64,000 bases of DNA from Candidatus Marinacidobacterales bacterium (GCA_965219415.1 OZ244742.1:1312001-1376000), one strand, 5' to 3'; numbered from the stretch's first letter, positions 45,462 to 64,000 are shown. Translations and numbers: made by a program. Notes: generated by a model not told the origin, from the sequence alone.

Positions 45462-45624
45462 CCGCCGGTGCCGGTCCAGCGAAGGCTGCCGTCGTTGTTC
45501 AACACTTGCCGGCCCAGGATGATCTCGGGCGCGCCGTCCCCGTCTAGGTCGGCGAGGGCGGGGCCACCGTCTCCGGTACCCTCCACGTTGGAGCTCAACC
45601 ACTTGACGGTTCCGTCATGCTCGA
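45462..45624 (-). repeat. Fragment A: 163-bp copy of giant-gene FG-GAP segment 61850-62012
   Basis: Ungapped alignment, 7 substitutions counted by eye. Confidence 0.92.
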
Positions 45625-45656
45625 CGCAACGGTCGGGCACGCGGTAAAATACATGC

Positions 45657-45878
45657 ATGCGACTTGTAACGGGCAAGGTGGTCGAAGGCAAGGTCGTCGT
45701 CGAGGGTGATCCTCTTAAGGAAGGGTCCACCGTCACCGTTCTCGCTCCGGAGGACGACAGGAGTTTTGAGCTCACACCGGAGCAGGAGGAGCTCCTCCTC
45801 CAAGCCATCCAAGAAGCCGAGCAAGGAGACTTCATCGATGGTGAACGGTTCCTTAAGGAACTCGACGAGCGAGGGTGA
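45657..45878 (+). CDS. Putative antitoxin (TA module 1)
   Basis: 73 aa acidic, ELTPEQEELLLQAIQEAEQGDFID; GTGA overlap with RelE/ParE gene. Confidence 0.75.
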   Translation: MRLVTGKVVEGKVVVEGDPLKEGSTVTVLAPEDDRSFELTPEQEELLLQAIQEAEQGDFIDGERFLKELDERG

Positions 45879-46186
45879 CGGCGTCACGACGCGTCAGAGT
45901 CCTTCGAAGAGCATCCCGCGAGATCCGTGAGGCCTCCGCGTGGTGGGCTACGAACCGGCCCGCAGCCCTCAACGCCTTCAACGAAGAGTTCCGACGAGCC
46001 TTTCTGTCTCTCTCCAAGCAACCTCTAGTCGGGCCGCTTGTCGCCGACGCCAGGTTCCCCGGCGTCCGACGCATTTACCTTAGTCGCATTCGCTATCACC
46101 TCTACTACCGTGTGAGCGCCGACGGACATGCTGTAGAGATTCTTGCTCTTTGGCACGGCCATCGCGGATCGGAACCCAGACTGTAA
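45875..46186 (+). CDS. RelE/ParE-family toxin (TA module 1)
   Basis: RASREIREASAWW, GVRRIYLSRIRYHLYYRV, ILALWH. Confidence 0.85.
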   Translation: MTASRRVRVLRRASREIREASAWWATNRPAALNAFNEEFRRAFLSLSKQPLVGPLVADARFPGVRRIYLSRIRYHLYYRVSADGHAVEILALWHGHRGSEPRL

Positions 46187-46622
46187 CAGGTTTTTTTTCG
46201 GGACACCCTATGGGTCAGCATTGTTGGCACGGGCTCGCCGTGTTAACCGCTGAAGGAACGAGGCGCTCCAAGTTTGGCTCTTCCTTCGCTTGCGCTTCTG
46301 TTTCGAACGCTCTGCGGACTCTCGATCTAAACCAGCCTTCTCAAAACCGGTTTTTCGTGCCGCAAGCCATGGGCTTCACCGTACAACGGGCTTGCCCGTT
46401 CGGGGTTCCGCCTCGTCCGTAGCCCTCATCCCCAGCGTGGCCCGGAATTCGTCACTTTGAATATCAGCTAACGCTCCCGCCCGGTCCCCCGCAAAGTGCG
46501 CACGCCCTTCGAGAAACTGAGGACGGCAGGTCCTTCGTCTTTCGTCGCACGGGACCTCCACCCAGCATGTGTTATCCTGATCTCAGTCCCACTCCCCGAC
46601 ATCATTAAAGGAAAGGTCCACC

Positions 46623-49154
46623 ATGAAGGGGAGCTCTGACGCCGAACGCCTTCTCGTCGCGCTGGCGAATCACCCCGATCTCGACCCCGATGCCCTGCGC
46701 GCCCTGCTCAAAGCCACTAGACTTCTCGGCCTTGCTTGTGGAGCCCAGCTCGCCCAGTACAGAAACTCCGAGGAACCCCTTCAAGTCGCTTTTGCCGATG
46801 TGCGAAGGCTCGCTCTATTGGCGCGGTGTTACGAAGCGGTCTCCCGAATCCTGTCCGAGCGCTGGCAAAAGATTCCCGAAAGACGTCGGCCTCATTACAC
46901 CCCACACCTGCGATTCCAGATCCTCGAGCTCAAGTCTCTCCTTGGCCTTTCCCAGAAGGAAACCGCCCAGCTCTTTGCGATCTCGAGAAACACCGTGGCC
47001 CGCTGGGAGCAGGAAGTCGCGGCGAACCCAGAACAAAAAACCGTGGGCTCGCTCGTTAAGCCGGATCCTCCTGTCCGGCGCTACGCCGATGTCGTCCGCC
47101 ATCTCATCCACACCATACGCCTCAACGGTTTCGGTGTGGGCTTGATCCGGTTTCGTAGACGGTTTAGTTAAGCTGGCGAAGTCCTCATCCGTCGTTCAAA
47201 CTCGGCCGGACTGACCTGGCCGAGGGTCGAGTGTCGTCGTCTCTGGTTGTAGAATACCTCGATGAAGTCGAAGAGGGCCATCTTGGCCTCGCCGCAACTG
47301 AGGAAATGCTCCCCAAGCTCGTGCTTGACCGTGGAGAACCAGCTCTCGATGACGGCGTTGTCGTAGCAGTTGCCCCGTCGGCTCATGCTCCCGGTCATGC
47401 CATGCGTCTCAAGGAGACGTTGGTAGTCTTTGCTGGCATACGGACTGCCCTGATCGGAGTGATGCAAGAGCCCCGCGGCCGGTTGGCGACGTTTCAGTGC
47501 CATCCGCAACGCTTTGATAACCAGGTGACGGTCGTTAATAGCACTTACGGCCCACCCAACGAGGAATCGCGAGTAGAGGTCGAGGAGCGCCGCGAGATAA
47601 AGCTTCCCGCCGCTGCCGATCACGAACTCGGTCGTGTCCCCGACCCACCGTTGGTTCGGCGCATCGGCGACGAAGTCTTGCCCGAGCACATTGGCCGCGA
47701 CGGGCTGGCCATGACCGCTTACCGTCGTGCGCTTGAAGCGTTTGCGTACTCGAGCAATGAGGCCTTCTGCCTGTTTCAACCGAATCACCCGCTTCCGACT
47801 CACTCGATACCCCTGCTCGTGCAGGTCGTGATAAATCCGCGGACTCCCATAGGTGCGGCGACTCGCCTCATGGGAGGCACGAATCAACACGCGCAACTGG
47901 CGGTCCCGGCGCGCGTGGGCCGACGGCGGCCGACGTACCCAGGCATAAAAGCCACTCCGAGAGACGTTGAGAATCTGACACAGGTGAACGACCGGTACGG
48001 TGGCCTTCTCCGCCTGGATGAACGCGAATCTTACTCGCTCTCCTTCGCGAAGAAGGCCGCGGCTTTTTTTAAAACGTCGCGCTCCACCCGCAACCGCCGA
48101 TTCTCTTTGCGGAGCCGCCGAAGCTCCTCGCGTTCCACGCCCGTCAAGCCCGTCCGGCCCTTCGTCCGATCGGCCCGGGCCTGACGGACCCAGTTGCGAA
48201 ACGCCGATTCGGTGAGGTCAAGCTCCCGGGCCACCCGACCCACGCTCTGGCCCTCATCAAGCACCAGCCGGACCGCGCCTGCCTTAAACTCGTCATCAAA
48301 CTCCCGGCGGGGTCGCCGGGGCTACGTTGTCTTTGCCATTGTGGACATCGTATCCGCCTTTCAGAAAGTGTCCACGAAACTGGATCAAGCCCAGTGGCTG
48401 CAAGCAGATCGCGCAAACGCTCGCCAGGGCCGGCTGGAAGCTCCACCGACGCACCGTCGGGAGAATACTGAAAGAAAAGCCTCCAAAGGCTCCGGTTGCT
48501 GTGAGAACAGCAGGGCCCGCCCGAACTCCCCGCGCTCGCCATCCCCATCACATCTGGATGGCCGACATCACCACCATCCCCAGCCTTTTTCGATTATTCT
48601 CCTTCAAGTTTGTGGTCGTCCTCGATGTCTTCTCGCGTATGCCGCTCGCCGCCAAGCTCTTCTGGAAAGAACCCTCCGCCCACCAAATGTGCCGGCTGAT
48701 TCAACGGGCCGCCCTTCGTTTCGGCCCGCCCCGACACTTCGTCTCCGACAAGGGATCCCAGTTCACCGCCAAGCGTTTTCGGAAAACCCTTCGCCGGTTT
48801 CGCATCCAGCACCGATTTGGAGCCATCGGTCAGTGCGGCTCCATCGCAATCATCGAGAGACTTTGGAGAACTCTCAAAGACGCCTTGAGCCTTCGCTCGT
48901 TCAAACCCTTGATGAGAGTGGATCTCGAGCGCAGGCTAGAAAAAGGGCTCTACTACTACACTTACCTTCGACCGCACCAGGGTTTGGCGAGTGCGACACC
49001 GGCTGAAGTTTACTTCCGTCGAGAACCGGCCCATCTAGCCGCTGTCCATCCTCCTCGAGCACGACCTCGAGAAGGACCCGTCGTTTCTCCTTTTGAGATC
49101 GACTATCTCGACCCGGACAAGATGCTTCCGGTTCTGATTCGCAAAGCAGCCTAG
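46623..49154 (+). pseudogene. HTH + rve DDE integrase/transposase, copy 1, interrupted by IS3
   Basis: RRPHY, HTH LSQKETAQLFAISRNTVARWE, WMAD / VSDKGSQF / IERLWRTLK, RPHQGL; rejoins as GFGGCK after IS removal. Confidence 0.9.
47137..48393 (-). mobile_element. IS3-family element (1257 bp): orfA 48031-48348 with internal TAG, orfB ending at 47168
   Basis: IRs TGGGCTTGATCCRGTTTCGTRGAC; 3-bp GTG duplication; A AAA AAG slippery site; WVGDTT, HSDQGSPY, DNAVIESWF. Confidence 0.93.
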
Positions 49155-49314
49155 CTGCTTCGCTCAACCTCAGGGAATCGACGGTCGTCGTGTGTCTGAT
49201 CCCTTACGTGCGGCGTTGACAGCGCCCGAAACAAAGGACCTAGGGATCTTAGAAGGCGGGTTGAGCCTGAAAAACGATTGGATCCGCGGCTCCAACTCCC
49301 ATTGCACCCGTACA
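49155..49314 (+). other. Conserved 3' end of integrase element 1 ending CCAACTCCCATTGCACCCGTACA
   Basis: Same length and motifs as the 3' ends of copies 2 and 3; terminal CA typical of DDE ends. Confidence 0.75.
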
Positions 49315-49396
49315 CGTACACACACCCATCGATCAAGACGTTTTGCCGGTAGTTGTTGAAGATCTCCCAGTTGTTGGGCTCCCGCCGCGGAATCGT
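49315..49396 (-). repeat. Fragment B: 82-bp copy of giant-gene segment 61029-61110
   Basis: Ungapped, 9 substitutions; TIP..E.NNWE.FNNYRQNVLIDGCVY. Confidence 0.9.
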
Positions 49397-49457
49397 GAAG
49401 GGGGCACCCAACGTTCGGAGAACTATTTCAAGCCCTCTCGAACTCGAGACTGGGTTA

Positions 49458-49507
49458 GCGCACTACTGCGTGTACCGTTTGATACGCAATATTATGTATG
49501 TTACTCT
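49458..49507 (+). promoter_or_regulatory. sigma70 promoter with two palindromic operator-like sites for Xre-RES
   Basis: TTGATA (49479-84)-17 bp-TACTCT (49502-07) with TGn extension; GCGCA-CTAC-TGCGT and ACGCA-ATAT-TATGT. Confidence 0.6.
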
Positions 49508-49525
49508 ATCTTTAAGGAGGGTGTT

Positions 49526-50242
49526 ATGAACCTGGTCATCTACAGCCAACCTAGCCTTAGGTCCACAGCAGAGGCGTTGATTCATCGACTTGGAGTTGAG
49601 GCGGAGTCACAGGTGAGTAGCTTTCCCGTCGCGTTGCGAGCGTTGCCCCCACGGGCTCACTGCGTGCTCGTGCTTTCCGGGAGCGAACCAACCGAGCTTA
49701 TACAAAACAGCCTGGCAAGGCTGGCACGTGGAAGGCGTTGGTCTGGCAAGCTTGTTCTGTATTCCGAGATGCCTAATTTGGAATCGGTTGTTGAGTGGGG
49801 GCGCTTGCTAGAAAGGCATCTGCCGAGACGGTCCTATGTGTGCTTCATGGATAACAAGGTGGCCGACGTACTGAAACTCCGTCCTATTCACACAGGACAG
49901 GGACCCGACACCAGCAGCATTCAAGCGGGGGAGACTTCGACTTTGCGTGGTGACCTTGGCCTGACACAGGAGCAGTTGGCCGCAGCTATCGGCGTTAGTC
50001 CCAGGACAGTTCAAAACTGGGAGTTCGGCAAGGACTCTCCACAGATCGAGCGGCGACTCCGCGATCTATTGGAGTTGAGGCAAGTACTCAAGGAGTATCT
50101 GCCACCTGAGCAGATTCAGCGATGGTTAAGGTCTCTCAACGACGCCTTCGCAGGGGCATCTCCACGAGATTGGATCTTAGATGGCAGAACGCGGGACGTT
50201 CTCATTGAGTTTCGTCGTCTCCAAACAGGCGAACCCTGGTGA
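49526..50242 (+). CDS. Xre/MbcA/ParS-type antitoxin with extra N-terminal domain (TA module 2)
   Basis: RBS AAGGAGG; HTH LGLTQEQLAAAIGVSPRTVQNWE; C-terminal WLRSLNDAFAGASPRDWI. Confidence 0.82.
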   Translation: MNLVIYSQPSLRSTAEALIHRLGVEAESQVSSFPVALRALPPRAHCVLVLSGSEPTELIQNSLARLARGRRWSGKLVLYSEMPNLESVVEWGRLLERHLPRRSYVCFMDNKVADVLKLRPIHTGQGPDTSSIQAGETSTLRGDLGLTQEQLAAAIGVSPRTVQNWEFGKDSPQIERRLRDLLELRQVLKEYLPPEQIQRWLRSLNDAFAGASPRDWILDGRTRDVLIEFRRLQTGEPW

Positions 50243-50817
50243 AACTTCAAGGGCGATGGGAACCACTACTTGCCGAGTTGCGCAGCGAGGCTTCTCCTCT
50301 CGAACGCAACTTCTTTCGCTCAGTCGAAATGCGCCACGCGCACCCCGACGACGTCCTCAGCGGTGAGGGTACACGCCGGAATGGAGGGCGTTTCGTCCGT
50401 CCCGGGGTCCGCGCCGTCTATCTTGCCAGCGACGAGGAGACCGCGTTCTGCGAGGTCACGGCGCGAAAACATCGTCTCGCGGGACACAGCCAGATCCAGT
50501 TGACGGATTACCCGCGAGTCACCTACGTCGTCCAGGTCAGACTGAAACAACATATCGACCTCGCCGGTCGGCGCACAGAACCGGAGGTGGGCGAGCTTGT
50601 CAGTGCTTGCCTCGCCTCGGATATCCGTGTGTCCCAAGCGGTGGGGGAGGCCGTTTGTAATGCTGGAGTGCAAGGGATCGTTTACCCGTCCGCGGTCCCC
50701 GAATGCAAAGGGACGAATCTCGTCGCGTTCCAGGATATTCTTCCTCGGCCGGAGCTGAAGCTTGTGAACAGAGACCGCGTAATCGCGCTTTTCAAGGAGT
50801 GGTCTGAGCGCGGCTGA
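50239..50817 (+). CDS. RES-domain toxin (TA module 2)
   Basis: GGRF, AVYLASDEETAFCE, SQAVG, GIVYPSA, NLVAF. Confidence 0.88.
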   Translation: MKLQGRWEPLLAELRSEASPLERNFFRSVEMRHAHPDDVLSGEGTRRNGGRFVRPGVRAVYLASDEETAFCEVTARKHRLAGHSQIQLTDYPRVTYVVQVRLKQHIDLAGRRTEPEVGELVSACLASDIRVSQAVGEAVCNAGVQGIVYPSAVPECKGTNLVAFQDILPRPELKLVNRDRVIALFKEWSERG

Positions 50818-51040
50818 TCTCATTGAATGGCGGTCACGGCCCGTCTCAATCGCTCTCTCCAGCCTACCGCTTGCGATTTCAGGCACAGCCACAGCCCACG
50901 GCAAAGTGCGGCACGCCCTTCGATGGACTCAGAAACGGAGGCCCCTTCGTCTTTTTTCGTCGGACGGGACCTGCCTCGCCCACCCTGTGTTATCCTGATC
51001 TCAGGTCCACTCCCCCAACATTCTTAAAGGAAAGATCACC

Positions 51041-52313
51041 ATGAAGGGGCGTTCTTGTGCCGAAAAGCTCCTGGTCTCGCTGGCCACCCAGCCCGATCTC
51101 GACTCGGATGCCCTGCGCGCCCTGATCAAAGCCACTCGACTTCTCGGCCTTGCTTGTGGAACCCAGCTCGCCCAGTACAGAAACTCCGGTGAGCCCCTTC
51201 AAGCCGCCTTTGCCGACGTACGAAAGCTCGCTCTGGTGGCGCGGTACTACGAGGCCGTCTCCCGAATCCTGGCCGAGCGATGGCAGAAGGTCCCAGAGAG
51301 GAGGCGGCCTCATTACGCGCCACAGCTGCGATTCCAGATCCTCGAGCTCAAGTCGCTTCTCGGGCTTTCCCAGAAGGAAACGGCCAAGCTCTTTGCGATC
51401 TCGAGAAACACCGTGGCTCGCTGGGAGCAGGAAGGTGGCGACAAATCCCGGAAAAGAAACCGTGGGCTCACTCGTCCGTCCGCACCCTCCCGTCCGGCGC
51501 TATGCTGACGTCGTCCGCCAATTGGTCCACACCATGAGGTCTGCCGGTTTCGGTGGCTGCGAGAAGATCGCCCAGACCCTCGCTCGGGTAGGTTGGAAGC
51601 TCTCCAAACGCTCCGTCGGGAGAATGCTGAAAGAAAAGCCGCCCAAGACGTCGATCCCATAAAGAACGCTAGGTTCAGCCCGAGCTCTCCGCGCTCGCCG
51701 TCCCGATCACTTCTGGATGGCCGACATCACAACGATCCCGAGCCTCTTTCGATTGTTCTCCTTCAAGCTCGTGGTCGTCCTCGATGGCTTCTCACGCATG
51801 CCGCTCATCGCTAAGCTTTTCTGGAAAGAACCGTCCGCCGGAGATATGAGCCGTCTGCTCCGAACCGCGGTGCAGCGGTTCGGCTCTCCCCAACGCTTCG
51901 TCTCGGACAATGGAAGGCAGTTCACGGCAAAACGTTTTCGAACAACGCTGCTCCGGTTGGGCATCCGACAGCGCTTCGGTGCCATCGGTCAGGTCGGCTC
52001 TATCGCGCTCATCGAAAGACTTTGGAGAACTCTCAAAGACAGCTTGCGCCTGCGTTCGTTCAAGCCCTTGATGAGAACAGACCTCGAACACAGGCTTGAG
52101 CAATGGCTCCATTACTACACCTACCTTCGACCGCACCAGGGTTTGGGCGGTGCCACCCCGGCTGAAATCCACTTCGGTCGACCACCCGCCCATCTAGCCG
52201 CCGTCCATCCTCCTGGGGCACGACCTCGCGAAGGTCCCGTCGACTCTCCTTTTGACATCGCCTATCTCGACCCGGAAAAGATGCTCCCGGTTCTGATTCC
52301 CAAAGTCGCCTAG
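51041..52313 (+). CDS. HTH + rve DDE integrase/transposase, copy 2 (frameshifts near 51433 and ~51660)
   Basis: Collinear with copies 1 and 3; WMAD, VSDNGRQF, IERLWRTLK. Confidence 0.85.
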
Positions 52314-52503
52314 CTTCACTGCCGAGCATCGACGATCCCACGGTCGTCGTCTGCCCTGAACCTCACCCACCGCGCCGACCTCTCTCGAAAGGGCGGATCC
52401 GGACTGCATTCAACCGCTGTTCGGATCGAAGAAACGAGTCACATCTCCCGCGCCAACTCCCATTGCGCCCCTACACCGCTCCAACTCCCATTGCACCCCT
52501 ACA
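52314..52503 (+). other. Conserved 3' end of integrase element 2 with tandemly doubled terminus
   Basis: CCAACTCCCATTGCGCCCCTACA (ends 52475) followed by CCAACTCCCATTGCACCCCTACA (ends 52503). Confidence 0.8.
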
Positions 52504-52835
52504 TGATGTATCGTTCGCGCTGAGATCGCGCCCCTCGACAGTAAAAAGCTCGCTGCCGTCGAGACCACTGACAATCCGAATGGCTCCGAGCGCGCTATTA
52601 CTACGCGAGGTGAAGGCCACCTCGGGGAACCCATCCACATCGAGGTCCACCACGATGGGAGTCGATATCACGTTCACCTTAGTGGGCTGTACGGGAGAGC
52701 TGTTCCAGGACCAGTTCTCCACCGGGGTCAGCGGAGCCGGCATGGGTGGGAGGAAGCTGCAGGCGGGTTCCGTGTTGCCGACATTGTTGTCCTCACGCGA
52801 CTCGAGGACGGCGTTGGCACTATCCACGAAGACGT
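52504..52835 (-). repeat. Fragment C: diverged paralog of giant-gene segment ~62098-62430
   Basis: VFVDSAN..ESREDNN..PAC.F.PP..WSW..TPIVVDLDVDGFPEV..VSGLDGSELFTV aligns to the giant protein. Confidence 0.85.
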
Positions 52836-53168
52836 TTCTTCACAGCGTGTCTCCCTTGGAATTACGTGCCTCGTATGCCAGGTAGGGTCGGATGAACGTG
52901 AGATGTCTGTTGCTGTTCACGTCTTCAGCTCCACCCTGGAGGCGGTTAACGCCGGCCTCGGTGATGTGATCGACGCCTTCCGCCGAGGTAGCGGGCGTCC
53001 TTCAGTTCTTCGGGAATCCCATCCACGGTCTCCCACACAGGTGGTCTTCTGTCGGGAGCGACGGTCTCACTCACCGGCCGCCACCTTCGACTCCCACAGC
53101 CTCGAGCTCGCCGGAAGCATCTGCTATAATTGATTATGGCCGTACCAGCGCACGATCCTTTTCGCGCC

Positions 53169-53243
53169 CGTCCCGAGAAGGTTGTCCACGGTGTCATCGA
53201 AGGTGCCGTTGGCGTTCCGATCTTCGAAGATGGCCACGTCAAA
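53169..53243 (-). repeat. Fragment D: diverged paralog of giant-gene segment ~62518-62592
   Basis: FDVAIFEDRNANGTFDDTVDNLLGT versus FEIAFFEDLNDNGTFEPGVDNLVGS. Confidence 0.85.
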
Positions 53244-53415
53244 AACCGACGTCTTGCAGCTACTCCGCGATATGCCCGACGAAATCGATGCGGACGATTT
53301 GATTTACAAGCTCTATCTCAAACAGAAGTTGCACTCAGCAGAAAAAGCAGCGGCGGATGGTGACACCGCCACTCATGACGAGGTTGTCAAACTGAGCGAC
53401 GAGTGGCTCAAGTAG
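53230..53415 (+). CDS. Putative antitoxin (TA module 3)
   Basis: 61 aa, KTDVLQLLRDMPDE..DLIYKLY..THDEV..EWLK; overlaps toxin start. Confidence 0.75.
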   Translation: MATSKTDVLQLLRDMPDEIDADDLIYKLYLKQKLHSAEKAAADGDTATHDEVVKLSDEWLK

Positions 53416-53709
53416 CTTGGACAGGGCCGGCCATCGAGGATCTCCGCCAAATCCACGAGTTCATCGCCCGTGATTCCAAGCGTTATGCTGGTGTTACTGT
53501 AAGGAAGATTAGGAGTGCCGCTGCACGCCTCCGAGATTTCCCAGAAAGTGGCGGTGTTGTCCACGAGCTCGCCGAGAGCCAGTACCGAATGGTGCTAAGT
53601 AGGCAACTACCGGGTCGTTTACCGCTATGTCCCGGGCAAGAAGCTCGTCTTGATACTGGCAGTCATTCACGGCAGTCGGCTTCTGCCTCCCGTCATCGAA
53701 AAGAGATAG
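53403..53709 (+). CDS. RelE/ParE-family toxin (TA module 3; frameshift near 53598)
   Basis: VAWTGPAIEDLRQIHEFIARDS, LRDFPESG; removing one A gives VGNYRVVYRY..ILAVIHGSRLL. Confidence 0.85.
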
Positions 53710-54070
53710 AGACAAACCGGCGCCCAGCGGTCTAGAGGCGGGCGAGCACGAACACAGCTCCGATGGCTCTTCGTCCACCATCAAGTCCCGGAGCGCTCAT
53801 CGACTCTCCGCGGACCCTCGAAACATCTCGACCAGGCTTTCAAAAACGGATTGATCGGACTCCAGATTCGAGCACCTCGTTTAGCAGCGCTGGAGCGCCC
53901 TGTTCCTCGTGGCCACGCAGGCCGCGGCGTTCCCCCGCCAAAGTGCGCTACGCTCTTCGATAGACTCAGGACCGAAGCTGCTCCTCGCTAGGTAATGGTT
54001 TCGCCGCGCTCACCATGTGCTATCCTGAACTCAATCCACTCCCCAACATTATTGGAGGAAAAAGTCCACC

Positions 54071-55343
54071 ATGAAGGGGAGCTCTGACGCCGAACGCCTT
54101 CTCGTCTCGCTTGCCAATCAACCCGCTCTCGACCCCCGATGCCTTGCCCGCCCTGCTCAAGGCCACCCGACTCTTCGGCCTCACCTGTGGAGTCCAGCTC
54201 GCCCAGTACAGAAACTCCGGCGAGCCTCTTCAAATCGCCTTTGCCGACTTGCGCAGGCTGGCCTTGCTGGCAAAGTGTTACGAAACCGTCTCCCGAATCC
54301 AGGCCGAGCGATGGCACAAGATTCCCGAAAGACGTCGACCTCATTACACCCCACCCCTACGATTCCAGATCCTCGAGCTCAAGTCCCTCCTTGGCCTTTC
54401 CCAGAAGGAAACCGCCCGGCTCTTTGCGATCTCGAGAAACACCGTGGCCCGCTGGGAGCAGGAAGTTGGGGCGAACCCAGGCCAAGAAACCGTGGGCTCG
54501 CTCGTTAAGCCCGAGCCTCCTATCCGGCGCTATGCCGATGTCCTCCGCCATCTCGTCCATACCATGCACTCCGCGGCTTTCGGAGGCTGCCAGCAGATCG
54601 CCCAGGTTCTCACTCGGGCAGGGTGGAAGATCTCCGAACGCTCTGTCGGCAGAATCTTCAAAGAAAAACCCCTTAAGCCGCCCACTCCCGCACCATCGGC
54701 GAAACCTACTCGAGCTCTCCGCGCTCGCCACCCCAACCACATCTGGATGGCCGACTTCACCACCATCCCGAGCCTTTTTCGATTGTTTTCCTTCAAGCTT
54801 GTGATTGTCCTCGATGTTTTCTCAAGAATGCCGCTCGTCGCCAAACTCTTCCGGAAAGAACCCTCCGCCCGACAAATGAGCCGGCTCGTTCAACGGGCCG
54901 CGCGTCGTTTCGGCCCGCCCCGACATTTCGTTTCCGACAAGGGAAAGCAGTTCACTGCAAAACGTTTTCGCAAAACACTGCGACGGCTCGGCACCCGACA
55001 GCGCTTCGGTGCCATCGGGCGGCACGGCTCCATTGCCATCATCGAAAGACTCTGGAGAACACTCAAAGATGCCTTGAACCTTCGCACTTTCAAACCCTTG
55101 GTCAAAGCCGAACTGCAACAACGGCTCGAGCTCGGGCTTTACTATTACACCCGCCTTCGACCTCACCAGGGTTTGGGTGGTGCCACTCCCGCTGAAGTCT
55201 ACTTCGGCCAAGCACCAGCCCATCTCGGAGCTGTCCATCCTCCTCGGGCGCGACCTCGAGAAGGACCCGTCCATTCACCTTTTGAGATCGCTTATCTCGA
55301 TCCAGATCAGATGCTTCCGGTTCTGATTCGCAAAACTGCCTAG
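54071..55343 (+). CDS. HTH + rve DDE integrase/transposase, copy 3 (one frameshift in C-run near 54135)
   Basis: WMADF, VSDKGKQF, IERLWRTLK, RPHQGLGGATPAEVY. Confidence 0.9.
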
Positions 55344-55504
55344 CTTCTCGGCCGAGCGTCGACCAATCCCACGGTCGTCGTCTGCCTTGAACCCTACGTG
55401 GCGCGTCGACATCTCCCACGACCAGGGATCCAGACTACATTCAACGGGCTTGGAACCGGAAAAACTACTCAGATCCGCCGCTCCAACTCCCATTGCGCCC
55501 CTAC
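55344..55504 (+). other. Conserved 3' end of integrase element 3 ending CCAACTCCCATTGCGCCCCTAC
   Basis: Same spacing from the stop codon as copies 1 and 2; final A replaced by C. Confidence 0.75.
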
Positions 55505-55708
55505 CGGATTCCATTTATTTGCAGGGGGCGCCTCGGCAGGGGGGTTCCAAGGCGGGAAACCAAGGCGGGGGAGGCGCGGCACGCCCTTTGCCCACTCCGC
55601 ACTTAAGGGTGGGCGGGGTGATTGAGCTGGCGCATCGCGTCTCCGGTGACGAAGACCTCCGCGCGGAGGAAGCATCGGCCGGCTTCCGGAGCCGGGGAGG
55701 TCTCTTCC

Positions 55709-56110
55709 TTATTCCTCAACGACTGGCCTTCGCCGTATCACATACCTCTTAGTATAGGGTTCGTGCATGGTCGGGGGAAACCTCCACAAATCCGATGAAC
55801 TGATAGACTCCTCCTCCGCATCTTTCTCTTGAGCATGACTGCTTCGGTAATAGAAAACCTCTCCATCGGAAACGTCTAGCAAGGTATTTGCCATTCTCTC
55901 CAATTCCCGAAAGATTGCGCTTTCAGTGTCTGCGCTCTCATACACGGAAACGTAAACTTCGACCCTTTTCGATTGACAGATGTTTGGATCATTTAGTTGC
56001 TTATCTGTGAGGCCGGTCACCTCAGACTCAAGCTTACAATCGACGAGCCGTCCGCCAATCTCCTCTACCGCTAAATTGGAATTTAACTCGAATATGGCAA
56101 CTTTCGACAT
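55709..56110 (-). CDS. Candidate RHS immunity protein
   Basis: 133 aa acidic ORF with RBS, 18 bp after the RHS stop, visibly lower GC than flanks. Confidence 0.65.
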   Translation of the reverse strand: MSKVAIFELNSNLAVEEIGGRLVDCKLESEVTGLTDKQLNDPNICQSKRVEVYVSVYESADTESAIFRELERMANTLLDVSDGEVFYYRSSHAQEKDAEEESISSSDLWRFPPTMHEPYTKRYVIRRRPVVEE

Positions 56111-56128
56111 TTCCTCTCCCGGTTTTCT

Positions 56129-59100
56129 TTACTTCGTAGTCAACCTTTTTGGAAAGAGAAAGTGGTGTATGTCTTCGTCTGGTGGTACGTGAAAATGAAC
56201 CGTCACATTATGCTTCGGAAATACCCGCGTTACAGGATGCCAGTCGAATCGGATAATGAGACTGTTAAGCCTGAGAATCCTATGCCCTAATCTTACGCCA
56301 AATATTCTTTGCTTGTCACCCCCCCTTTCAAAAAGAATGAAACGCCCTGTTCCTCGACGGGTCAAGCTGCTCTTTCCTGGCTTTCTGGATGTTGGAAGCT
56401 GGATGACTAGTTGGTAATCCTTGATATGTCTCCTAACACGTTCCAATGTCTCTCGAACCCTCTGGCTCGTTTGACGTATCGCCTCCGGCAGAGCCAAAAA
56501 GATCACATCTCCAGTATCCCGGGCTACGTCTTGGAAGGCTTTGTAAACTTCTGAAATGGCGATCGACGGCCCTAAGGGTGCTTCCAGAGTCTCCAACACG
56601 GCAGTGCGCAATACAGCGGTTGCTGCGAGCGCCACGACAAAAACGACCGCTAGATTCGCCTCGGCGACGGTAATCTGTTTGCCAGTGGGATCTAGGTTGT
56701 TGACTGGATCCGCATGCGCATACAAGTACTTGTGAAGGCTTAAAGGATCCTGCAGCACACCTTCAAAAGGATCTAAGCTGACGAACCTTCCGACCCGCGG
56801 ATCCAACCACCGAGCGCGGTTGTAGGAGAAGCCCACGTTGGGATCGAAGGGCTCTCCGGCAAACTGGTACGGCTGCGGATCGATGCCGACGTGGTCTAAC
56901 TGCTCCCCGAAGGCAGTATAAGTGTAGCTATCCGTGACGTTCCCTACCTCATCAGTGAGGAACCGAATAGAGCCCAATCCATCGGCGTGGTAGAAACGAG
57001 TCTCGGTGGGTCGGGTAACGGCGAGAAGGTCGTCGACGCCTCTTACATAGTAGGCAATGAGGTTGCCCGCGTTGTCGGTCTCGGCGGCCACGTGGCTGAG
57101 AAAACCTGAGGGGTCGACCAAGAAGTTCGTGACGGAGGGCGGCCCCGTCGCGGGAGTGATTTCCGTTCGGACGCGGTTACCGTCCGCATCGTACGCGTGC
57201 GTGACGACCGTCCCGTCGGCTTTCTCCACGCGGACGAGCCTGTCTTCGAAGTCCCAGAAGTACGTGGCCTCGGTGGACTTGCTAGTGAGGTTCCCGTTGT
57301 CGTCGTAGCTATAGACGGTTCCGTTTTCGGTCAGGAGCCGATCTCGATCGTCATAGGCGTAGTTGACGACGCCGGCACCGAGGCCTGTGGTGGTTTGGAC
57401 GTCTCTGTTACCCACGGGGTCGTAATCGAAGACCTTCTCATAGACCAGCCCAGTCGTGTCGCTGACCTTGTCCCCTGTCAACCGATAGAGATCATCGTAG
57501 GTGTACTCCCTGAAGGTCCCGTCGGCCTCATCGATGCGTTCCCGGTTCCCCGCCAGTCCCAGCGTGAAATCGTAGGACTGGATGACGCCCGACGGTCCCG
57601 TTGTGGTCAGGTCCGTTAGCCGGTTGAGGGTGTCATAGCCGTAACTCGTGGCCGTTGCATTCGGGTGGCTGAGTGAATCACGGTTTCCATTTGGATCCCA
57701 ATCGAAATCATACTGCCCAGCATTCGGGTCGGCGACGATATCCAAACGGCTCGCGTCGTCGTAGCTGAAAGCAGTTGTCAGCACGGTCGTCTCCATTGTA
57801 GCGATCAGACTGGTCCGATTGCCATTGCCATCGTAGCCGTACTCGAGCTTTCGTCCATCCGGGTAGGTCAGAGTTTCCAGACGGTCCCTGTCATCGTACG
57901 CGTAGTTCGTGACACCCCGGGAGTCGGTGGCGGTTTCTCGCCGGCCTGTGTTCGTGTAGGTAAATTCCACGAAGCTCGTGTCGGGAAAATTCCTCCGCGT
58001 TAATCGATTGTTGACGTCATAATCGAATGTGATCGCATTCCCGTCGAACTTCGTCCAGGTCTTGAGGTTCCCGGTCGCGTCATACGCCTTGGTCTCGAAC
58101 GTTCCGTCCGGGAGCGTTCGCTTGGTCTCCCGCCCGAGCTCGTCATACTCAAAGCTGGTGACGTGGTTGTTCGTGTCTTCTTGCTCGATACGGTTTCCGA
58201 CCTCGTCGTAACGATAGATCGTCTCCTGATTGAGAGCGTCGATGACCTTCGTCAGCCGCCCCAAGCAGTCATACTCAAACCGAGTGATCTTGCCGACTTG
58301 ATCCTTCTCGCTGATACGGCGTCCCAGGCTGTCGTAGGTTGTCTCTGTGAACGTGGTATCTGGAAAGATGGTCTTGGTTCTTCGATTCAGCTCATCGTAC
58401 TCGAAGGTCGTCGTACTCGAGCTTGGCGTCCCGCACCGAGATCTGGTTGCCGTTGGGGTCGTAGCCGAAGACGGTCTCATTGCCCAAAGGATCTCGGATG
58501 TGGGTCCTCCGACCCGCCCGGTCATACTCCAAGAACGTAGACTTGCCGCGGGCGTCCACGGTTTCTACTAGCCTTCCCGCATCGTCGTAGACGCTCTCGG
58601 TAAAAGTTAGATCAGGGAAGATCGTCGTCGTGAGGCGACCCAAATCGTCGTATTCGAACGTGGTCACGCGACCCTCTCGGTCCCTCGAGGTGAGTGTTCT
58701 ACCTTCCACATCGTAGGTAAACTCCTCGGTCGTTAGATCGGGGAAGGTGGTCTTGGTGAGGCGGCCCATGTCGTCGTATTCGAACGATGTCTTCCGATTC
58801 AGCTTGTCGAAGCTTTCCACCTGCTTCCCGAGCTCGTCGTAAACGATTCGCGTGGTGGTTCCGTCCGGATCCTCCGTGTCAGTGAGTCGATCCTGCTTGT
58901 CGTACGTGAACGTCGTCACCAAGGTCTCGACGCCGCTTGGAGTGGTCCTGGTCCTCGTCTCGGTGCGGCGGTTTCCGTTGCTGTCGTAGGTGAAGGTTGT
59001 CTCATTCCCTAACGCGTCGATCTCCTTGGTGAGGTTGCCAGAAGCGCTGTACTCGAACTCAGTGACACATAGCTCTCCTTCCACAAGAACAGTCTGAGTT

Positions 59101-60029
59101 TCCACATTACCTTGAGCGTCGTAGGTGAAGGTCGTCTCATTCCCCAGAGCATCGATGGTTTTCTCGAGATTGCCGTTGGCGTCATAGACGTTGGTGGTCA
59201 CTTTCTCGCGGGAGTCCTTGACAGTCAAGACCTGGTCCCTATTGTTGTAGGTGAACTCCGTCCTGTTCCCCTCCGGATCGGTCACATTGGTCTGGTTGTC
59301 CCGATCGTCGTAAGTGAAGAATGTGGTCGGAGGATCGGCCTCCGAAGGATCATGCACGTCAGTCTCCGAAAGGCGATTGTTGTCGTCATCAAATGTCCTC
59401 AAAATGATCTTCCCATTCGGATCCGTCTCCCGAAGTACATTCCCCCGATCGTCGTATTCCAACACCCTGATATTGTCCTCGCGGTCCTTGATGATCTCCT
59501 GTCGGGTGTCGAGATCATGGGTGTACTCGATGGTCTTGCCAAAGGCATCGGTGTGGCTGATGAGCCTTCCCGACACGGGATCGTAGTCGTTGCGGATGGG
59601 CGTGATGCCCCTGGGGTCTTCGATCTCGTCCAGGTGATGAGGTATCGAAGACAAATAACCAAACGTCGTGGTGTTGTTCTCACGATCGGTGTTGGTCTCC
59701 AGATCCCCACTGCCGTCATAGACGTAGAACATGGGGTTGCCTTCGGGATCGATGATGGACTCAATCCTACCCTGAGCGTCCCGGTTAAAGACCACACCCT
59801 TGCCACTCGAGTGTGTAATCCCGCCCGGACTGATCGTCAGCCGGTTGTCATTGAGATCGGTCAAACTCTGGAGTCCTTCACTCTCGTCAATTACTAACTC
59901 TCGGCCGTCTCTCATCGTGAGACGATACCGGTCCGCGTCGTAAACCGTAAAATCCGATTGCCGGAAAAGCTGCACCGTTCCCGGGAAGGCGCCCACAACC
60001 AAAGCCAAGTTACCGTCCGCGGGCTCCAA
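56129..60029 (-). CDS. RHS/YD-repeat core with C-terminal toxin-like domain (frameshift near 58422)
   Basis: Many YD repeats; YHADGLGS, YQFAGEPFD, ARWLDPRVGRFVSLDP, YLYAHADPVNNLDPTG. Confidence 0.92.
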
Positions 60030-63000: not shown

Positions 63001-64000
63001 GCTGCCGCTGGACGCGGAGCGGGTGGCGATGAGACGGACCCGAATAACTCTCGTCCCCGCAGGAGCAAAACGGGAGTCGGAGACGAGCTCCCAGTCGGCA
63101 ACGAACGCCGTGTCGCCTGTATCGAAAGAATCGAGCACCGCGGTATTCGACGCGTCTCGGTACTCGATCACGATGCGCGCCCTATCCGGCGGGTTCTGGT
63201 TGAAACTTCGCACGTAGCCTTGGAAGTGGAAGAGCAAGGCGCCGGTGTCGATGGCGCCGGCGAGGGGCGAGACGTCCATGTCCTGATGAAGCTCCGCAAC
63301 GGGTCGGTTTCCTGCGTAGAAGTACGCTCCTTCGAACGGATTCGTAAAACGCTGCGTCCACGCGTCGCCCGTCACTTCCTTCCAACCCAGGATCTCGCCG
63401 TTGGCGAGCGGCAAATCATTGCCCGGGTTTTGGATCAGATTGACGCCGAGCAGGGTCGTGGGATCCCCCATGGCGAGGCTCTGATCGGGTCCGGCGTCCG
63501 CCGAGGGGGGCTGGTTCTCGGCCACCACGCTCACTTGCACGGAGTCGGATGCATTGAGAGCGGAGTCACTCGCGCTCAACAGCAGCTCGTAGTCGCCGGG
63601 AGCGGGAAACTGGGCTTCGGTCTGGGGAGTCCCGGGCGATTGGAAGACGACCGTCCCCGGACCGGTCAACTGTGTCCAGCTCACGGTGAGAGTTCCGTCG
63701 GAAGGGACGCCATCGTCGATGACCGTGCCGGTGAGTGTCGTAGAAACGGAGAACGGCGACTCGGGGAACGGTCGCAGCGACAAGGCGTCGAAGTATCCTT
63801 CGTTCGAAGAGCCGGCCTGGCGAGTGGAGAGGAGTCGAATGCGAACGAAACCTGTGTTCAGCGGCGCCAATCGGGAGTCCGCTACCGGCTCCCAATCCGT
63901 AAAGCTGAGAGAGCCGGAGTCGAACGAGGCCAAAACCGTCGTGTTGGTCGGGTCACGATACTCGATCACGATGCGGGCGAGATCGGCACCCACCGTCCTC
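60010..64000 (-). CDS. N-terminal part of the giant RHS protein: PKD/K319L-like, galactose-binding-like, CARDB and FG-GAP repeats (5' end outside window)
   Basis: NQAPxVxAGxDQ / DDGLP repeats, PDLT..E.REDNN, ADLDxDGxPE motifs. Confidence 0.88.
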   Translation of the reverse strand, partial: RTVGADLARIVIEYRDPTNTTVLASFDSGSLSFTDWEPVADSRLAPLNTGFVRIRLLSTRQAGSSNEGYFDALSLRPFPESPFSVSTTLTGTVIDDGVPSDGTLTVSWTQLTGPGTVVFQSPGTPQTEAQFPAPGDYELLLSASDSALNASDSVQVSVVAENQPPSADAGPDQSLAMGDPTTLLGVNLIQNPGNDLPLANGEILGWKEVTGDAWTQRFTNPFEGAYFYAGNRPVAELHQDMDVSPLAGAIDTGALLFHFQGYVRSFNQNPPDRARIVIEYRDASNTAVLDSFDTGDTAFVADWELVSDSRFAPAGTRVIRVRLIATRSASSGSNDGFFDSLLLYTPRLIRVDLDGVISDDGLPLGAPLSSTWSQEEGPLVGSFDDLSQTGTSFTTMLAGTYVLKLTASDSDLTGSDQVSITVAPPVLPPDLTILSVDTSSASFDAQTLEISGSFTAEITNLGPGDVTETFEIAFFEDLNDNGTFEPGVDNLVGSESQAGLSTGGTVLVTAPVSGMLTLVGNLLHTFVDSGFVVTETREDNNAVNSAPACDFRPPVAPFAPVLKWSWTSSSILPNARQIIMTPSVADLDMDGVPEVIFTTYQKSARSQSFLRVVSGQDGTELFTVDDPDLRVHRGSPVAVGDIDRDGRVEIVAVAENQNRLIAFEHDGTVKWLSSNVQGTGDGGPALAGLDGDGAPEIILGRQVLNNDGSLRWTGTGGRGGRLGNPLAGVADLDLDGIPEIVAGRTAYRANGDIYWDHPELSDGWIAVTDFDDDPFPEVVLVANGDVFLFEHSGEIKWGPVPIDQGGTGGPPLVADLDNDGEPEIGVAGRSRYQVFEHTGVSKWSVPISDGSSSITGSSAFDFEADGFAEVVYADERRLRVFDGTDGTVVFETEIGSATRLEYPIIADVDVDGKAEIVVVANEFNNPVPVAGIFVYGTPSERWVPTRALWNQYTYHITNINDDGTIPARESNNWELFNNYRQNVLIDGCVYALPDLTASFVRKETVGSDVVLTARLGNGGGNAAGPEIGVSFYNGDPASGGILLGTTRTESLAGRQFRDVSLIVPVGTEALPLWVVADDEGGLVGLHTESDETNNAVDGQVFLTATPNQAPVVDAGADQLLTLEGASLVVSLAGTVTDDGLPIGVLNTFWGQVGGPMSLVFTDPMDPLTTVTMVEPGEYVLRLTADDLDLTGSDEVTITVIPPNQAPLVSAGPDQSIILPVDTVTLSGSVTDDGLPRGATVTSTWSFTGPGPVVLDDPSSPLTTATFVDPGTYVLRLTATDTEFTVFDEAVVTVFPQNEAPVVSAGADQAISVASTLLEGSVSELGARGR

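What the first reader, a model, noticed from the sequence alone, without database searches (positions are those of the whole stretch)
45462..55505. Three-unit array of rve-integrase elements, each paired with a different toxin-antitoxin module, beside an RHS locus
Seen: the order [giant-gene fragment]-[TA]-[conserved leader]-[~420-aa HTH-rve integrase]-[160-162-nt 3' end] occurs three times in the same orientation. The integrases are diverged paralogs. The TA cargo differs each time: RelE/ParE type, Xre-RES, and a dissimilar RelE/ParE pair. A sharp right end is present (TGTAGGGGYGCAATGGGAGTTGG on the bottom strand) but I found no matching left inverted repeat and no target duplication; weak look-alikes are TGAAGGGGGCACC at 49396 and TGCAGGGGGCGCC at 55520. 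Known: TG...CA ends and this DDE triad are IS481/IS3-superfamily traits, and one-ended capture of neighbouring genes is known for ISEcp1. Inference: an uncharacterised cargo-carrying, possibly one-ended element family that stacks TA/defence cassettes at one locus, integron-like in outcome but DDE-driven.
Basis: partly seen in the sequence, partly recalled or inferred. Interest (0 to 1): 0.82.

Follow-up and report, generated by a model that had tools for sequence, protein, structure and literature searches.

The report
Decayed transposon array carrying toxin-antitoxin genes
Three worn-out copies of a little-known jumping gene sit head to tail, each just behind a different toxin-antitoxin pair, and the pattern suggests that this lineage drags such pairs along when it moves, using a poor stand-in for its lost left end.

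Summary
In detail: three same-strand units of [giant-gene fragment]-[type II TA]-[leader]-[HTH-rve transposase]-[sharp right end] lie at 45462-55505. All three transposase genes are damaged as assembled: one by a nested IS, one by a frameshift plus a stop, one by a frameshift at codon 21.

The enzyme belongs to an unclassified IS3/IS481-superfamily clade that is widespread in Acidobacteriota. Relatives at about 53% identity are ordinary 1.5-kb IS with perfect 23-bp inverted repeats at both ends, and the window's right end is that repeat. The window's sublineage (10 copies examined) keeps only the right repeat, and its left homology boundary varies between copies.

A TA family was identified directly upstream in 7 of those 10 copies. 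ParE and RES genes are rare in this genome.

The weak look-alike at 49396 lies exactly at the junction between target DNA and the Xre-RES unit. Its flank overlaps by 13-14 nt the flank of a right end in a congeneric genome, as a ~14-bp target duplication would.

Best reading (about 0.45): a left-end-defective IS that moves as [TA-transposase-right IR] units through surrogate left ends, now decaying in a variable island. "Integron-like" is not supported. It is a new variant of a known kind, of moderate interest.

The parts
45462..45624 (-). Fragment A of the FG-GAP/RHS giant gene, fused on its left to an N-terminally truncated AHSA1 gene. It marks the left edge of the variable island.
   Evidence: 95.7% identical to 61850-62012. 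Junctions are shown. Collinearity with G001 ends at 45469 and the AHSA1 gene is intact there.
45657..45878 (+). Small antitoxin-like ORF of unit 1, overlapping the ParE start. No family match.
   Evidence: ORF. No Pfam or NCBIfam hit. A promoter-like site at 45621-45650 lies just upstream.
45875..46186 (+). ParE-family toxin of unit 1.
   Evidence: Pfam ParE_toxin, E = 2.2e-08, full-length match.
46482..49314 (+). Copy 1 of the IS: leader, transposase gene in two pieces (46623-47136 and 48394-49154), 3' region and right IR ending at 49314.
   Evidence: The frame is intact apart from the nested IS, and the copy is 85% identical to the intact G001 copy.
47137..48393 (-). Nested 1257-bp IS3-family IS with 29-nt IRs and a 3-bp duplication. 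It is recent and polymorphic.
   Evidence: Inverted repeat I1. Pfam HTH_Tnp_1, HTH_21 and rve. There are 20 full copies at 99.5-100% identity in the genome. Contigs of X4 and X7 join 47133 to 48394 without it.
49315..49395 (-). Fragment B of a giant-gene paralogue. It is target DNA left between the right end of copy 1 and the left edge of unit 2.
   Evidence: 89% identical to 61029-61110. Alignments. tblastn gives 89% over 27 aa.
49396..49408 (+). Left IR look-alike: 7 of the first 8 nt match the IR terminus. It is the proposed surrogate left end of unit 2 (49396-52475, 3.08 kb).
   Evidence: The chance of such an 8-mer within 2 nt of any of 3 junctions is about 0.004.
49526..50242 (+). Xre-type antitoxin of unit 2. 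The start codon is my choice within the 49343-50242 ORF.
   Evidence: Pfam HTH_3, E = 1.5e-10. Weak matches to Xre_MbcA_ParS_C and to the NCBIfam RES/Xre antitoxin model.
50239..50817 (+). RES-domain toxin of unit 2.
   Evidence: Pfam RES, E = 2.4e-20. It is one of 3 RES loci in the genome.
50895..52475 (+). Copy 2 of the IS, a pseudogene (+1 at 51434, TAA at 51660), with its right IR ending at 52475.
   Evidence: In run X9 position 51660 reads C, so there is no stop there.
52476..52503 (+). Second right IR, 28 nt after the first, abutting fragment C. Unexplained: it may be the stub of an earlier copy or a duplicated end.
   Evidence: (D17). Contigs of X1 and X4 cover it without differences.
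52504..53229 (-). Fragment C, a diverged FG-GAP paralogue fragment equivalent to giant-gene positions 62095-62601.
   Evidence: tblastn gives 51% over 113 aa and 52% over 31 aa. The junction is shown.
53230..53415 (+). Antitoxin-like ORF of unit 3. Its ATG lies directly at the junction with fragment C.
   Evidence: No family hit.
53403..53735 (+). ParE-family toxin of unit 3, frameshifted.
   Evidence: Pfam ParE_toxin matches positions 1-58 only. The rest matches in another frame. A 1-nt difference at 53597 is seen in X9.
53928..55505 (+). Copy 3 of the IS. It has a 410-aa ORF (54111-55343), an out-of-frame ATG at 54071, and a right IR ending at 55505.
55520..55532 (+). Second left IR look-alike, 14 nt after the right end of copy 3. 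A 13-nt match to the leader start follows at 55576-55588. Read as the possible stub of a fourth unit.
55709..63999 (-). Context: a small ORF downstream of the RHS tip (55709-56110) and the FG-GAP/RHS giant gene (56129 to beyond 63999, read in three overlapping frames). All IS copies are antisense to it.
   Evidence: (YD-type repeats D7-D14).

Best explanation
The locus holds three decayed copies, and probably the stub of a fourth, of an unclassified IS3/IS481-superfamily insertion sequence. It lies in a 26.7-kb variable island next to, and antisense to, an FG-GAP/RHS giant gene.

Shown:
- The enzyme is a single-ORF HTH-rve transposase with a DD(35)E triad and K at E+7.
- The right end is the family's 23-bp terminal inverted repeat.
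- Canonical relatives are ordinary two-ended 1.5-kb IS.
- The window's sublineage has no recognisable left repeat.
- In that sublineage a type II TA pair usually lies directly upstream on the same strand.

Inferred:
- This sublineage lost a working left end.
- When it moves, its transposase pairs the good right end with a weak look-alike further upstream. The DNA between them, typically a TA pair, travels as cargo.
- The cleanest case is unit 2 (49396-52475): look-alike, Xre-RES, transposase, right IR, joined to giant-gene DNA on its left with an inferred ~14-bp target duplication.
- TA cargo would be favoured because it makes loss of the unit costly.
- Later recombination between the ~80%-identical copies, deletions and a recent IS3-family insertion scrambled the flanks and killed the genes.

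My odds by layer: IS remnants 0.95; TA genuinely linked to the element 0.65; surrogate-left-end capture 0.4.
For: Family and ends:
- Pfam rve E = 6e-18 plus HTH. IS3 and IS481 models are the best NCBIfam hits.
- D228, D289, E325 and K332 are invariant in 18 sequences.
- There are 626 homologues of about 413-423 aa.
- Relatives L035 and L042 are 1503 and 1520 bp with 23-bp IRs at both ends. The same IR forms the window's right ends.

One conserved end:
- Of the copies with a recognised right end, an inverted left partner was seen only in L035, L044, L038 and L041.
- Among 10 copies of the window's sublineage, homology always starts at about -56. It extends to -140, -296 or -598 only in subsets.

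TA linkage:
- Family hits for W1, W2, W3, G1b and G1c.
- G1a keeps a mazF 3' remnant that is contiguous with its leader.
- The ORF upstream of L106 is 65% identical to the G1c DUF5615 toxin.
- Genome-wide there are only 6 ParE loci (2 in the array), 3 RES loci (1 in the array) and 25 PIN loci.
- In the wider family, upstream ORFs hit ParE 3, Unstab_antitox 3, DUF5615 2, DUF433 2, PemK 2, RHH_1 2, and HicA, Gp49, PIN, HTH_3 and HTH_37 once each, out of 123 ORFs. Of TA families, only PemK (2) appears among the 25 families listed for the 85 downstream ORFs.

Surrogate end:
- The look-alike at 49396 starts at the last base of homology to the giant gene. The chance of this is about 0.004.
- Fragment B ends at giant-gene 61097-61110. 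The flank after the G1a right end in G001 starts at 61097. This 13-14-nt overlap fits the ~15-bp TSD class of IS481 (PMC10045372, passages read).
- The second look-alike lies 14 nt after the right end of copy 3, a spacer of similar length.

Mobility:
- Copies sit at non-orthologous sites in congeneric genomes.
- Right ends join giant-gene DNA at different positions: 61029, about 61097, 62095-equivalent and 67119-equivalent.
Against: - Only one of three units has a look-alike on its left junction. Unit 1 has only an 8-of-13 match to the IR core, and unit 3 has none.
- The look-alike matches the IR over 8-12 nt only.
- The two halves of the inferred 14-bp duplication lie in different genomes. 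They flank copies that are only about 80% identical, so a later exchange or a shared hot spot must be assumed.
- No TSD was found at L035, L042, three short IR pairs, or the long IR-bounded candidates in L038 and L041.
- Canonical two-ended relatives exist, so many one-ended copies could simply be relics.
- All three window copies are damaged.
- Nothing shows present activity. No circle or unit-level empty site was seen in contigs.
- One sublineage copy (L031) has a PD-(D/E)XK fragment upstream, not a TA. Two more (L048, L107) have small ORFs with no family hit.
- The sublineage set rests partly on records of G007, which flags as unpublished.
Confidence: 0.45

Rival explanations
1. Ordinary IS graveyard. 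Normal two-ended copies inserted repeatedly into dispensable giant-gene DNA. Their left ends were later lost by deletion, and homologous recombination between copies shuffled the flanks. TA pairs lie next to the surviving copies because addiction modules protect neighbouring DNA from deletion, not because they are cargo.
For: - Canonical relatives have both IRs.
- All three copies are damaged and ParE3 is frameshifted.
- Identity to G001 copies is mosaic: copy 1 is 89% identical in its 5' part and 81% in its 3' part.
- Flanking giant-gene fragments are not collinear.
- The genome is IS-rich.
Against: - Survivorship does not predict the same strand and immediate upstream position in 7 of 10 copies.
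- It does not predict TA genes starting 0-130 nt from giant-gene DNA.
- It does not predict a shared left boundary in copies from different genomes.
- It does not predict the look-alike lying exactly on the junction.
Confidence: 0.28
2. Targeted insertion. The element is a plain 1.5-kb IS with unlike ends, its left edge at about -56 or -140. It prefers to land just downstream of TA operons, for example at their terminators, so the TA pairs are target rather than cargo.
For: - All 10 sublineage copies share a boundary at about -56.
- Terminator-like hairpins lie in the leaders at 46519-46535 and 50935-50950.
- Other IS3-family members are known to target structured repeats (recalled, not checked here).
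Against: - The -140 to -57 segment is homologous between copies whose TA pairs are unrelated, so it is not part of the TA operons.
- TA pairs here are themselves embedded in giant-gene fragments without native flanks.
- G1a and G1b share homology running from mazF through the transposase gene.
Confidence: 0.12
3. Translocatable-unit growth, as with IS26. A circle holding one IS copy plus adjacent DNA is excised and then joins next to a resident copy, either by the transposase acting on one end or by homologous recombination. This builds head-to-tail arrays without target duplications.
For: - Copies are directly oriented and interleaved with unrelated segments, and no TSDs are seen.
- Similar tandem arrays occur in G001, G060, L045 and L031.
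- A right IR is followed by cargo and then a transposase gene in L073 and L045.
Against: - The copies are 77-87% identical, not identical.
- Left boundaries are not precise.
- No IS26-type transposase is present, and nothing known links rve IS3/IS481 enzymes to that reaction (recalled).
Confidence: 0.1

Closest known systems
IS481 family (and the IS3 family) of DDE insertion sequences
   Same: - Single HTH-rve transposase with DD(35)E and K at E+7.
- TGT...ACA termini and terminal IRs of about 23 bp in canonical relatives.
- An inferred duplication of about 14 bp fits the ~15-bp TSD class reported for some IS481 members (PMC10045372, passages read).
   Different: - Scores are below both curated models.
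- The transposase is about 420 aa and the element 1.5 kb.
- Most copies examined lack a left IR.
- No direct TSD was seen.
- TA pairs lie upstream.
ISEcp1-type capture of adjacent DNA through surrogate ends (IS1380 family)
   Same: One good end beside the transposase gene is paired with weak look-alikes at variable distance, so neighbouring genes are carried along. That is the outcome proposed here for unit 2.
   Different: - The arrangement is mirrored. Here the fixed end lies downstream of the gene and the captured DNA lies upstream.
- The transposase family is different.
- ISEcp1 keeps a usable canonical second end. I recall this; only search listings were seen.
- No experimental evidence exists here.
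Tn3-family transposons with toxin-antitoxin passengers
   Same: Type II TA pairs of several families sit next to the transposition genes and are thought to be part of the module (PMC7157771; title and abstract seen in the listing).
   Different: The transposase is unrelated, there is no resolvase or res site, and the elements are much smaller.
IS1202 family
   Same: 1.5-kb elements with TGT/ACA ends, TIRs of about 24-26 bp, extra transposase-binding repeats near the ends, and TSDs that are short, very long, or not identifiable (PMC10132070, passages read). The 28-30-nt tandem end copies seen here recall those extra sites.
   Different: That family has Q at E+7 and transposases of 441-457 aa modelled on TnsB. 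Here E+7 is K, the proteins are 413-423 aa, and the ISNCY model scores only 28 bits.

Membership tests
IS481 family | Single-ORF DDE (rve) transposase with DD(35)E and K/R seven residues after E | tested here: met
   An intact 423-aa ORF exists in G001. Pfam rve. D228, D289, E325 and K332 are invariant in 18 sequences.
IS481 family | Score above NCBIfam's curated IS481 model cut-off | tested here: not met
   113.9 bits against a cut-off of 224.
IS481 family | Terminal inverted repeats starting TGT and ending ACA at both ends | tested here: inconclusive
   Met in the canonical relatives L035 and L042. In the window only the right end has it.
IS481 family | Target site duplication (mostly 6 bp, some about 15 bp; PMC10045372) | tested here: inconclusive
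   None was found at L035, L042 or the other IR-bounded candidates. A 13-14-nt overlap of flanks split between two genomes is suggestive only.
IS3 family | Two overlapping ORFs joined by programmed -1 frameshifting, and a score above the curated model cut-off | tested here: not met
   Relatives have one continuous ORF. The score is 126.6 bits against a cut-off of 160.
IS1202 family | Q at the seventh residue after the catalytic E, and a 441-457-aa TnsB-like transposase (PMC10132070) | tested here: not met
   K332 is invariant at E+7 and lengths are 413-423 aa. No structural comparison was run.
Integron | Tyrosine recombinase IntI with attI and attC-bounded promoterless cassettes | tested here: not met
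   The only recombinase domains found are rve and HTH. No Rfam or attC-type match at E up to 0.1 in 44000-57000. The cargo units carry their own regulator genes.
Type II toxin-antitoxin modules | Small adjacent or overlapping gene pair with a recognised toxin domain | tested here: met
   ParE_toxin twice and RES with an Xre HTH partner. The two ParE partners have no family hit, and the second ParE is frameshifted.
ISEcp1-like one-ended capture (mechanism, not family) | Units of variable length that share one canonical end, end in weak IR look-alikes, and are each flanked by a TSD | tested here: inconclusive
   Left boundaries vary. One look-alike lies exactly on a junction. No complete unit with a TSD was found in a single genome.

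The most novel reading that the evidence does not exclude
A lineage of IS481-like DDE elements has permanently lost its left inverted repeat. It can move only by pairing its right end with chance look-alikes upstream. It therefore always carries upstream DNA and is filtered by selection for addiction modules, building head-to-tail stacks of [TA-transposase] units in large surface-protein genes. This would be a DDE-driven mirror image of ISEcp1/ISCR capture that spreads TA and possibly defence genes in Acidobacteriota.
Probability: 0.3. Interest if true: 0.7.

Novelty: new variant of a known kind. Interest (0 to 1): 0.5.

Why it matters
If the reading is right, it adds a second enzymatic route, through an IS3/IS481-type transposase, to capture of neighbouring genes by surrogate ends. 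It would also give a concrete reason why TA pairs cluster with transposase genes in little-studied soil and marine phyla.

It also describes an IS clade that is widespread (626 homologues at E <= 0.001) and falls below the curated IS models. Its conserved 23-bp end makes it easy to annotate.

If the rival reading is right, the locus is an ordinary decaying IS cluster in a variable island. The value is then mainly annotation: what looks like a novel cassette system is debris.

Tried and rejected
- Rfam at E up to 0.1 on 44000-57000 gave no match. The conserved leader and the 3' region are therefore not known RNAs.
- No RNA holder was listed among the sequencing runs.
- Only contigs could be laid, so starts, rare circles and rare empty sites could not be seen.
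  - The joints 45624->53197 and 58000->49315 are cross-matches of the true giant gene to its fragments.
  - The joint 48181->50894 has only 24 nt on one side, and I set it aside.
- The metagenome scan added only 6 loci.
- tblastn against PLSDB plasmids found nothing at E <= 1e-20.
- The IR motif is not in the searched papers.
- I looked for TSDs of any length at two complete canonical elements, three short IR pairs and the long IR-bounded candidates in L038 and L041. None was found.
- A test for terminal 8-mers upstream across the family was dropped. About 1.5 chance hits are expected per 4 kb.
- The idea that the tandem 28-nt right ends mark a 28-bp TSD with unit 2 between the copy-1 IR and the extra IR could not be separated from alternatives. 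All IR pairs differ by 1-2 nt.
- The G001 array, compared with its empty site in G000, showed a replacement of intergenic DNA, not a clean insertion.
- I read the ORF upstream of L048 and L107 as PIN-like by eye. Pfam and NCBIfam did not support this.
Full report
**What is there**

The window is G000:C1:1312001-1376000. Repeat finding and self-BLAST show three same-strand copies of a ~1.58-kb segment at 46482-49314, 50895-52475 and 53928-55505. They are 77-87% identical to each other. These are the only copies in the 8.05-Mb genome.

Each copy encodes an HTH plus rve (DDE) protein. Each ends 161-168 nt after the stop codon in a sharply bounded motif. That motif occurs four times in the window and never in 100 shuffles.

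Directly upstream of each copy, on the same strand, lies a type II TA pair:
- ParE with a small partner, at 45657-46186.
- Xre-RES, at 49343-50817.
- A second ParE with a small partner, at 53182-53735.

Left of each TA pair lies a piece of the FG-GAP/RHS giant gene. That gene occupies the minus strand from 56129 to beyond the window end.
- Fragment A: 45462-45624, 95.7% identical to 61850-62012.
- Fragment B: 49315-49395, 89% identical to 61029-61110.
- Fragment C: 52504-53229, a diverged paralogue at about 51% aa identity.

**Corrections to the description**

None of the three transposase genes is intact as assembled.
- Copy 1 is in frame but is split by a 1257-bp IS3-family IS (47137-48393) with 29-nt IRs and a 3-bp duplication. 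The genome holds 20 full copies of that IS at 99.5-100% identity.
- Copy 2 has a +1 frameshift at 51434 and a TAA at codon 207.
- Copy 3 has an extra C in a C-run at codon 21.

The second ParE is frameshifted. Copy 2 has two tandem right ends 28 nt apart.

Short-read contigs from public runs support the assembly.
- X4 48833-51160 and X1 51388-52859, 52836-54047 and 54437-58000 cover the inner junctions with no differences.
- No piece spans the whole array.
- In X4 and X7 a contig joins 47133 to 48394, so the IS3-family insertion is recent and polymorphic.
- X9 reads C at 51660 (no stop). Low-depth contigs in X4 and X9 carry a 559-bp deletion variant (54026->54586).

**What family it is**

The protein has 626 homologues at E <= 0.001. 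Most are 413-423 aa, and where a source names them they are called transposases. Matching records are titled Vicinamibacteria, Thermoanaerobaculia, Holophagales and other Acidobacteriota, and more distantly Polyangiaceae and Planctomycetota.

NCBIfam places the protein nearest the IS3 and IS481 models, but below both cut-offs. D228, D289, E325 and K332 are invariant in an 18-sequence alignment. That is the DD(35)E-K signature.

Relatives at about 53% identity are ordinary insertion sequences. L035 (1503 bp) and L042 (1520 bp) carry a 23-bp terminal inverted repeat at both ends. The same left repeat is seen in L034, L051, L053, L064, L067 and L044, about 106-111 nt upstream of the gene. The window's right end is this repeat with two changes.

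**The left end is missing in this sublineage**

No inverted partner exists anywhere in the window, at up to 6 of 23 mismatches or for the 9-nt core.

I examined ten copies of the window's sublineage:
- W1-W3 in the window.
- G1a, G1b and G1c in the congeneric genome G001.
- L031 and L048, from records of the genome that flags as unpublished.
- L106 and L107, from metagenomes.

All ten share homology from about -56 relative to the ATG. Only W1-W3, G1c and L031 share it back to -140. G1a and G1b share it to about -300, into a mazF gene. L048 and L107 share it to about -600.

Across the wider family, an inverted left partner was seen only in L035, L044, L038 and L041 among the copies with a recognised right end. 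In L038 and L041 it lies 0.7-3.8 kb upstream, with genes in between.

Many copies are 5'-truncated but keep the right end: for example L031 second copy, L074 twice, L078, L071, L063, L072, L081, L098 and L101. I did not count truncations systematically against contig edges.

**TA linkage**

In the sublineage a TA family was identified directly upstream in 7 of 10 copies.
- ParE (W1), RES/Xre (W2) and ParE (W3).
- MazEF (G1b) and a mazF remnant (G1a).
- DUF433/DUF5615 (G1c).
- A 65%-identical DUF5615 homologue (L106).

L048 and L107 have two small overlapping ORFs with no family hit. L031 has a PD-(D/E)XK fragment.

The genome has only 6 ParE loci (2 of them here), 3 RES loci (1 here) and 25 PIN loci. 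Three of three copies having a TA pair within 300 nt upstream is far from chance.

For the wider family I picked up to three likely ORFs in the 1.3 kb upstream of 53 copies, giving 123 ORFs. One duplicate locus, L094, was dropped. I did the same for the 1.3 kb downstream of 42 copies, giving 85 ORFs.
- Upstream hits: ParE 3, Unstab_antitox 3, DUF5615 2, DUF433 2, PemK 2, RHH_1 2, and HicA, Gp49, PIN, HTH_3 and HTH_37 one each.
- Downstream, PemK (2) is the only TA family among the 25 listed. One of those two is the mazF that lies upstream of G1b. The other I did not identify.

The tool lists only the 25 commonest families and does not say which member hit. These are family-member counts, not locus counts. 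TA upstream is common in the family but not universal.

**Where the units end on the left**

Seven of its first eight bases match the IR terminus.

In the window, such 8-mers with up to one mismatch occur 34 times on both strands outside the true ends. The chance of one within 2 nt of any of the three junctions is about 0.004.

Fragment B ends at giant-gene 61097-61110. In G001 the DNA that follows the right end of G1a begins at 61097 and runs on to 61422. The two flanks overlap by 13-14 nt. One insertion of a [look-alike ... right IR] unit with a ~14-bp target duplication would leave exactly this. Some IS481 members make ~15-bp duplications (PMC10045372, passages read).

The second look-alike (55520) lies 14 nt after the right end of copy 3. 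It is followed at 55576-55588 by a 13-nt match to the start of the leader. I read this as the stub of a fourth unit cut off by the RHS tip region.

Against this:
- Unit 1's junction (45624/45625) is followed only by an 8-of-13 match to the IR core.
- Unit 3's junction (53229/53230) is the antitoxin ATG itself, with no IR-like sequence.
- The two halves of the inferred duplication lie in different genomes, beside copies that are only about 80% identical.

**Context and history**

G001 is collinear with the window up to 45469 and again from window-equivalent 72166. Between these points G000 holds 26.7 kb and G001 holds 8.6 kb of other genes. In G001 the AHSA1 gene is intact; in the window fragment A truncates it.

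G001 has no intact copy of the part of the giant gene that I searched (window 55506-64000). Its only matches to that stretch lie beside its three IS copies.

Its two-copy array is an 8.15-kb block between the equivalents of G000 C3:224622 and 224645. The order is: mazF remnant, G1a, right IR, giant 61097-61422, MazEF, G1b, right IR, giant 67119-70417. The block replaces intergenic DNA rather than being a clean insertion.

All copies in both genomes are antisense to the giant gene. Right ends join it at four different positions, so these are transposition-type joints. The left flanks never match the right flanks.

Identity between copies is mosaic. Copy 1 is 89% identical to G1a in its 5' part and 81% in its 3' part. 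This points to recombination between copies.

The leaders of copies 1 and 2 carry a terminator-like hairpin. The conserved -56 block starts with a possible extended -10 box, which is my reading of the sequence. The transposase gene is therefore probably insulated from TA transcription.

**How I think it works**

The best-supported account is that this sublineage descends from a normal two-ended IS whose left repeat decayed. A core resembling the middle of the IR can still be seen at about -140.

Movement then needs a stand-in left end upstream. Whatever lies between that stand-in and the transposase gene is carried along. Units that carry a TA pair persist, because losing them is costly.

Repeated insertion into large dispensable surface-protein genes produced the array. 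Recombination between copies, deletions, and finally the IS3-family insertion and point damage left the present debris.

I put this at about 0.45 overall. The rivals are set out separately:
- Graveyard with survivorship of copies next to TA pairs.
- Targeted insertion downstream of TA operons.
- IS26-like growth by translocatable units.

Unexplained:
- The tandem end copies with a 28-30-nt period, in the window and in L063, L052, L064, L067 and L034.
- The absence of direct TSDs at canonical elements.

**Novelty**

I found no paper that holds the IR motif. Two searches gave no description of TA-carrying IS481-like elements. I read only the listings and abstracts of those searches, plus passages of PMC10045372 and PMC10132070. 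Supplements were not consulted.

TA passengers are described for Tn3-family transposons (PMC7157771, listing and abstract). Surrogate-end capture is described for ISEcp1 (listing; the details are recalled).

The locus is therefore a new variant of known kinds, not a new category. Nothing supports an integron-like mechanism.

Noticed in passing
window 47137-48393: A 1257-bp IS3-family IS with 20 full copies at 99.5-100% identity in the genome. It is absent from this site in contigs of runs X4 and X7, so it is currently or recently active.
   Followed up: partly
window 46624, 51042, 54072: The start codon of each transposase gene overlaps an 8-mer that is the same as the look-alike at 49396. By my own count, the first 15 nt match the IR at 11 positions. 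This could be an internal transposase-binding site or chance.
   Followed up: no
window 56129-63999 (minus strand): The FG-GAP/RHS giant gene reads as three overlapping ORFs (60010-63999, 58392-60029, 56129-58525). It is either frameshifted twice or carries assembly indels.
   Followed up: no
window 52447-52503; also L063 6919-6971, L052 7417-7468, L064 5766-5818, L067 7377-7429, L034 882-932: Tandem duplicates of the terminal repeat with a 28-30-nt period recur at right and left ends in several subfamilies. They may be extra transposase-binding sites, as reported for IS1202/Tn7-type ends, or footprints of insertion next to an end.
   Followed up: partly
L034 84-2035; L067, L044, L098, L101: There are many solo copies of the 23-bp repeat in one orientation, and short IR pairs of 351-412 bp (L067 5885-6235, L044 6437-6848) that look like non-autonomous derivatives.
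   Followed up: partly
L073 1518-2323 compared with L076 5769-5876: Two nearly identical Holophagales loci (96.8% in the flank) differ by an 806-nt segment directly upstream of the transposase gene. The segment contains a right-IR-like 38-mer and small ORFs, so it is a recent gain or loss of an upstream block.
   Followed up: partly
L030 3487-3891 (minus) and 7520-7906 (plus): Two similar ORF fragments in inverted orientation flank the G1c locus in G001. By eye they resemble the C-terminus of IS91-type transposases; this was not tested.
   Followed up: no
L030 4890-4929: A 40-nt piece of the transposase ORF (equivalent to window 46848-46887) lies at the edge of the giant-gene fragment upstream of the G1c TA pair. 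It is probably a relic of another copy.
   Followed up: no
L022 15441-16572 against G000 contig C3: Another repeat of about 1.1 kb matches more than 70 places in G000 at about 80-82% identity, so the genome is heavily loaded with IS.
   Followed up: no
window 54026-54586: Low-depth contigs in X4 and X9 join these positions. That removes the promoter-proximal 559 bp of copy 3 in part of the population or in a relative.
   Followed up: no
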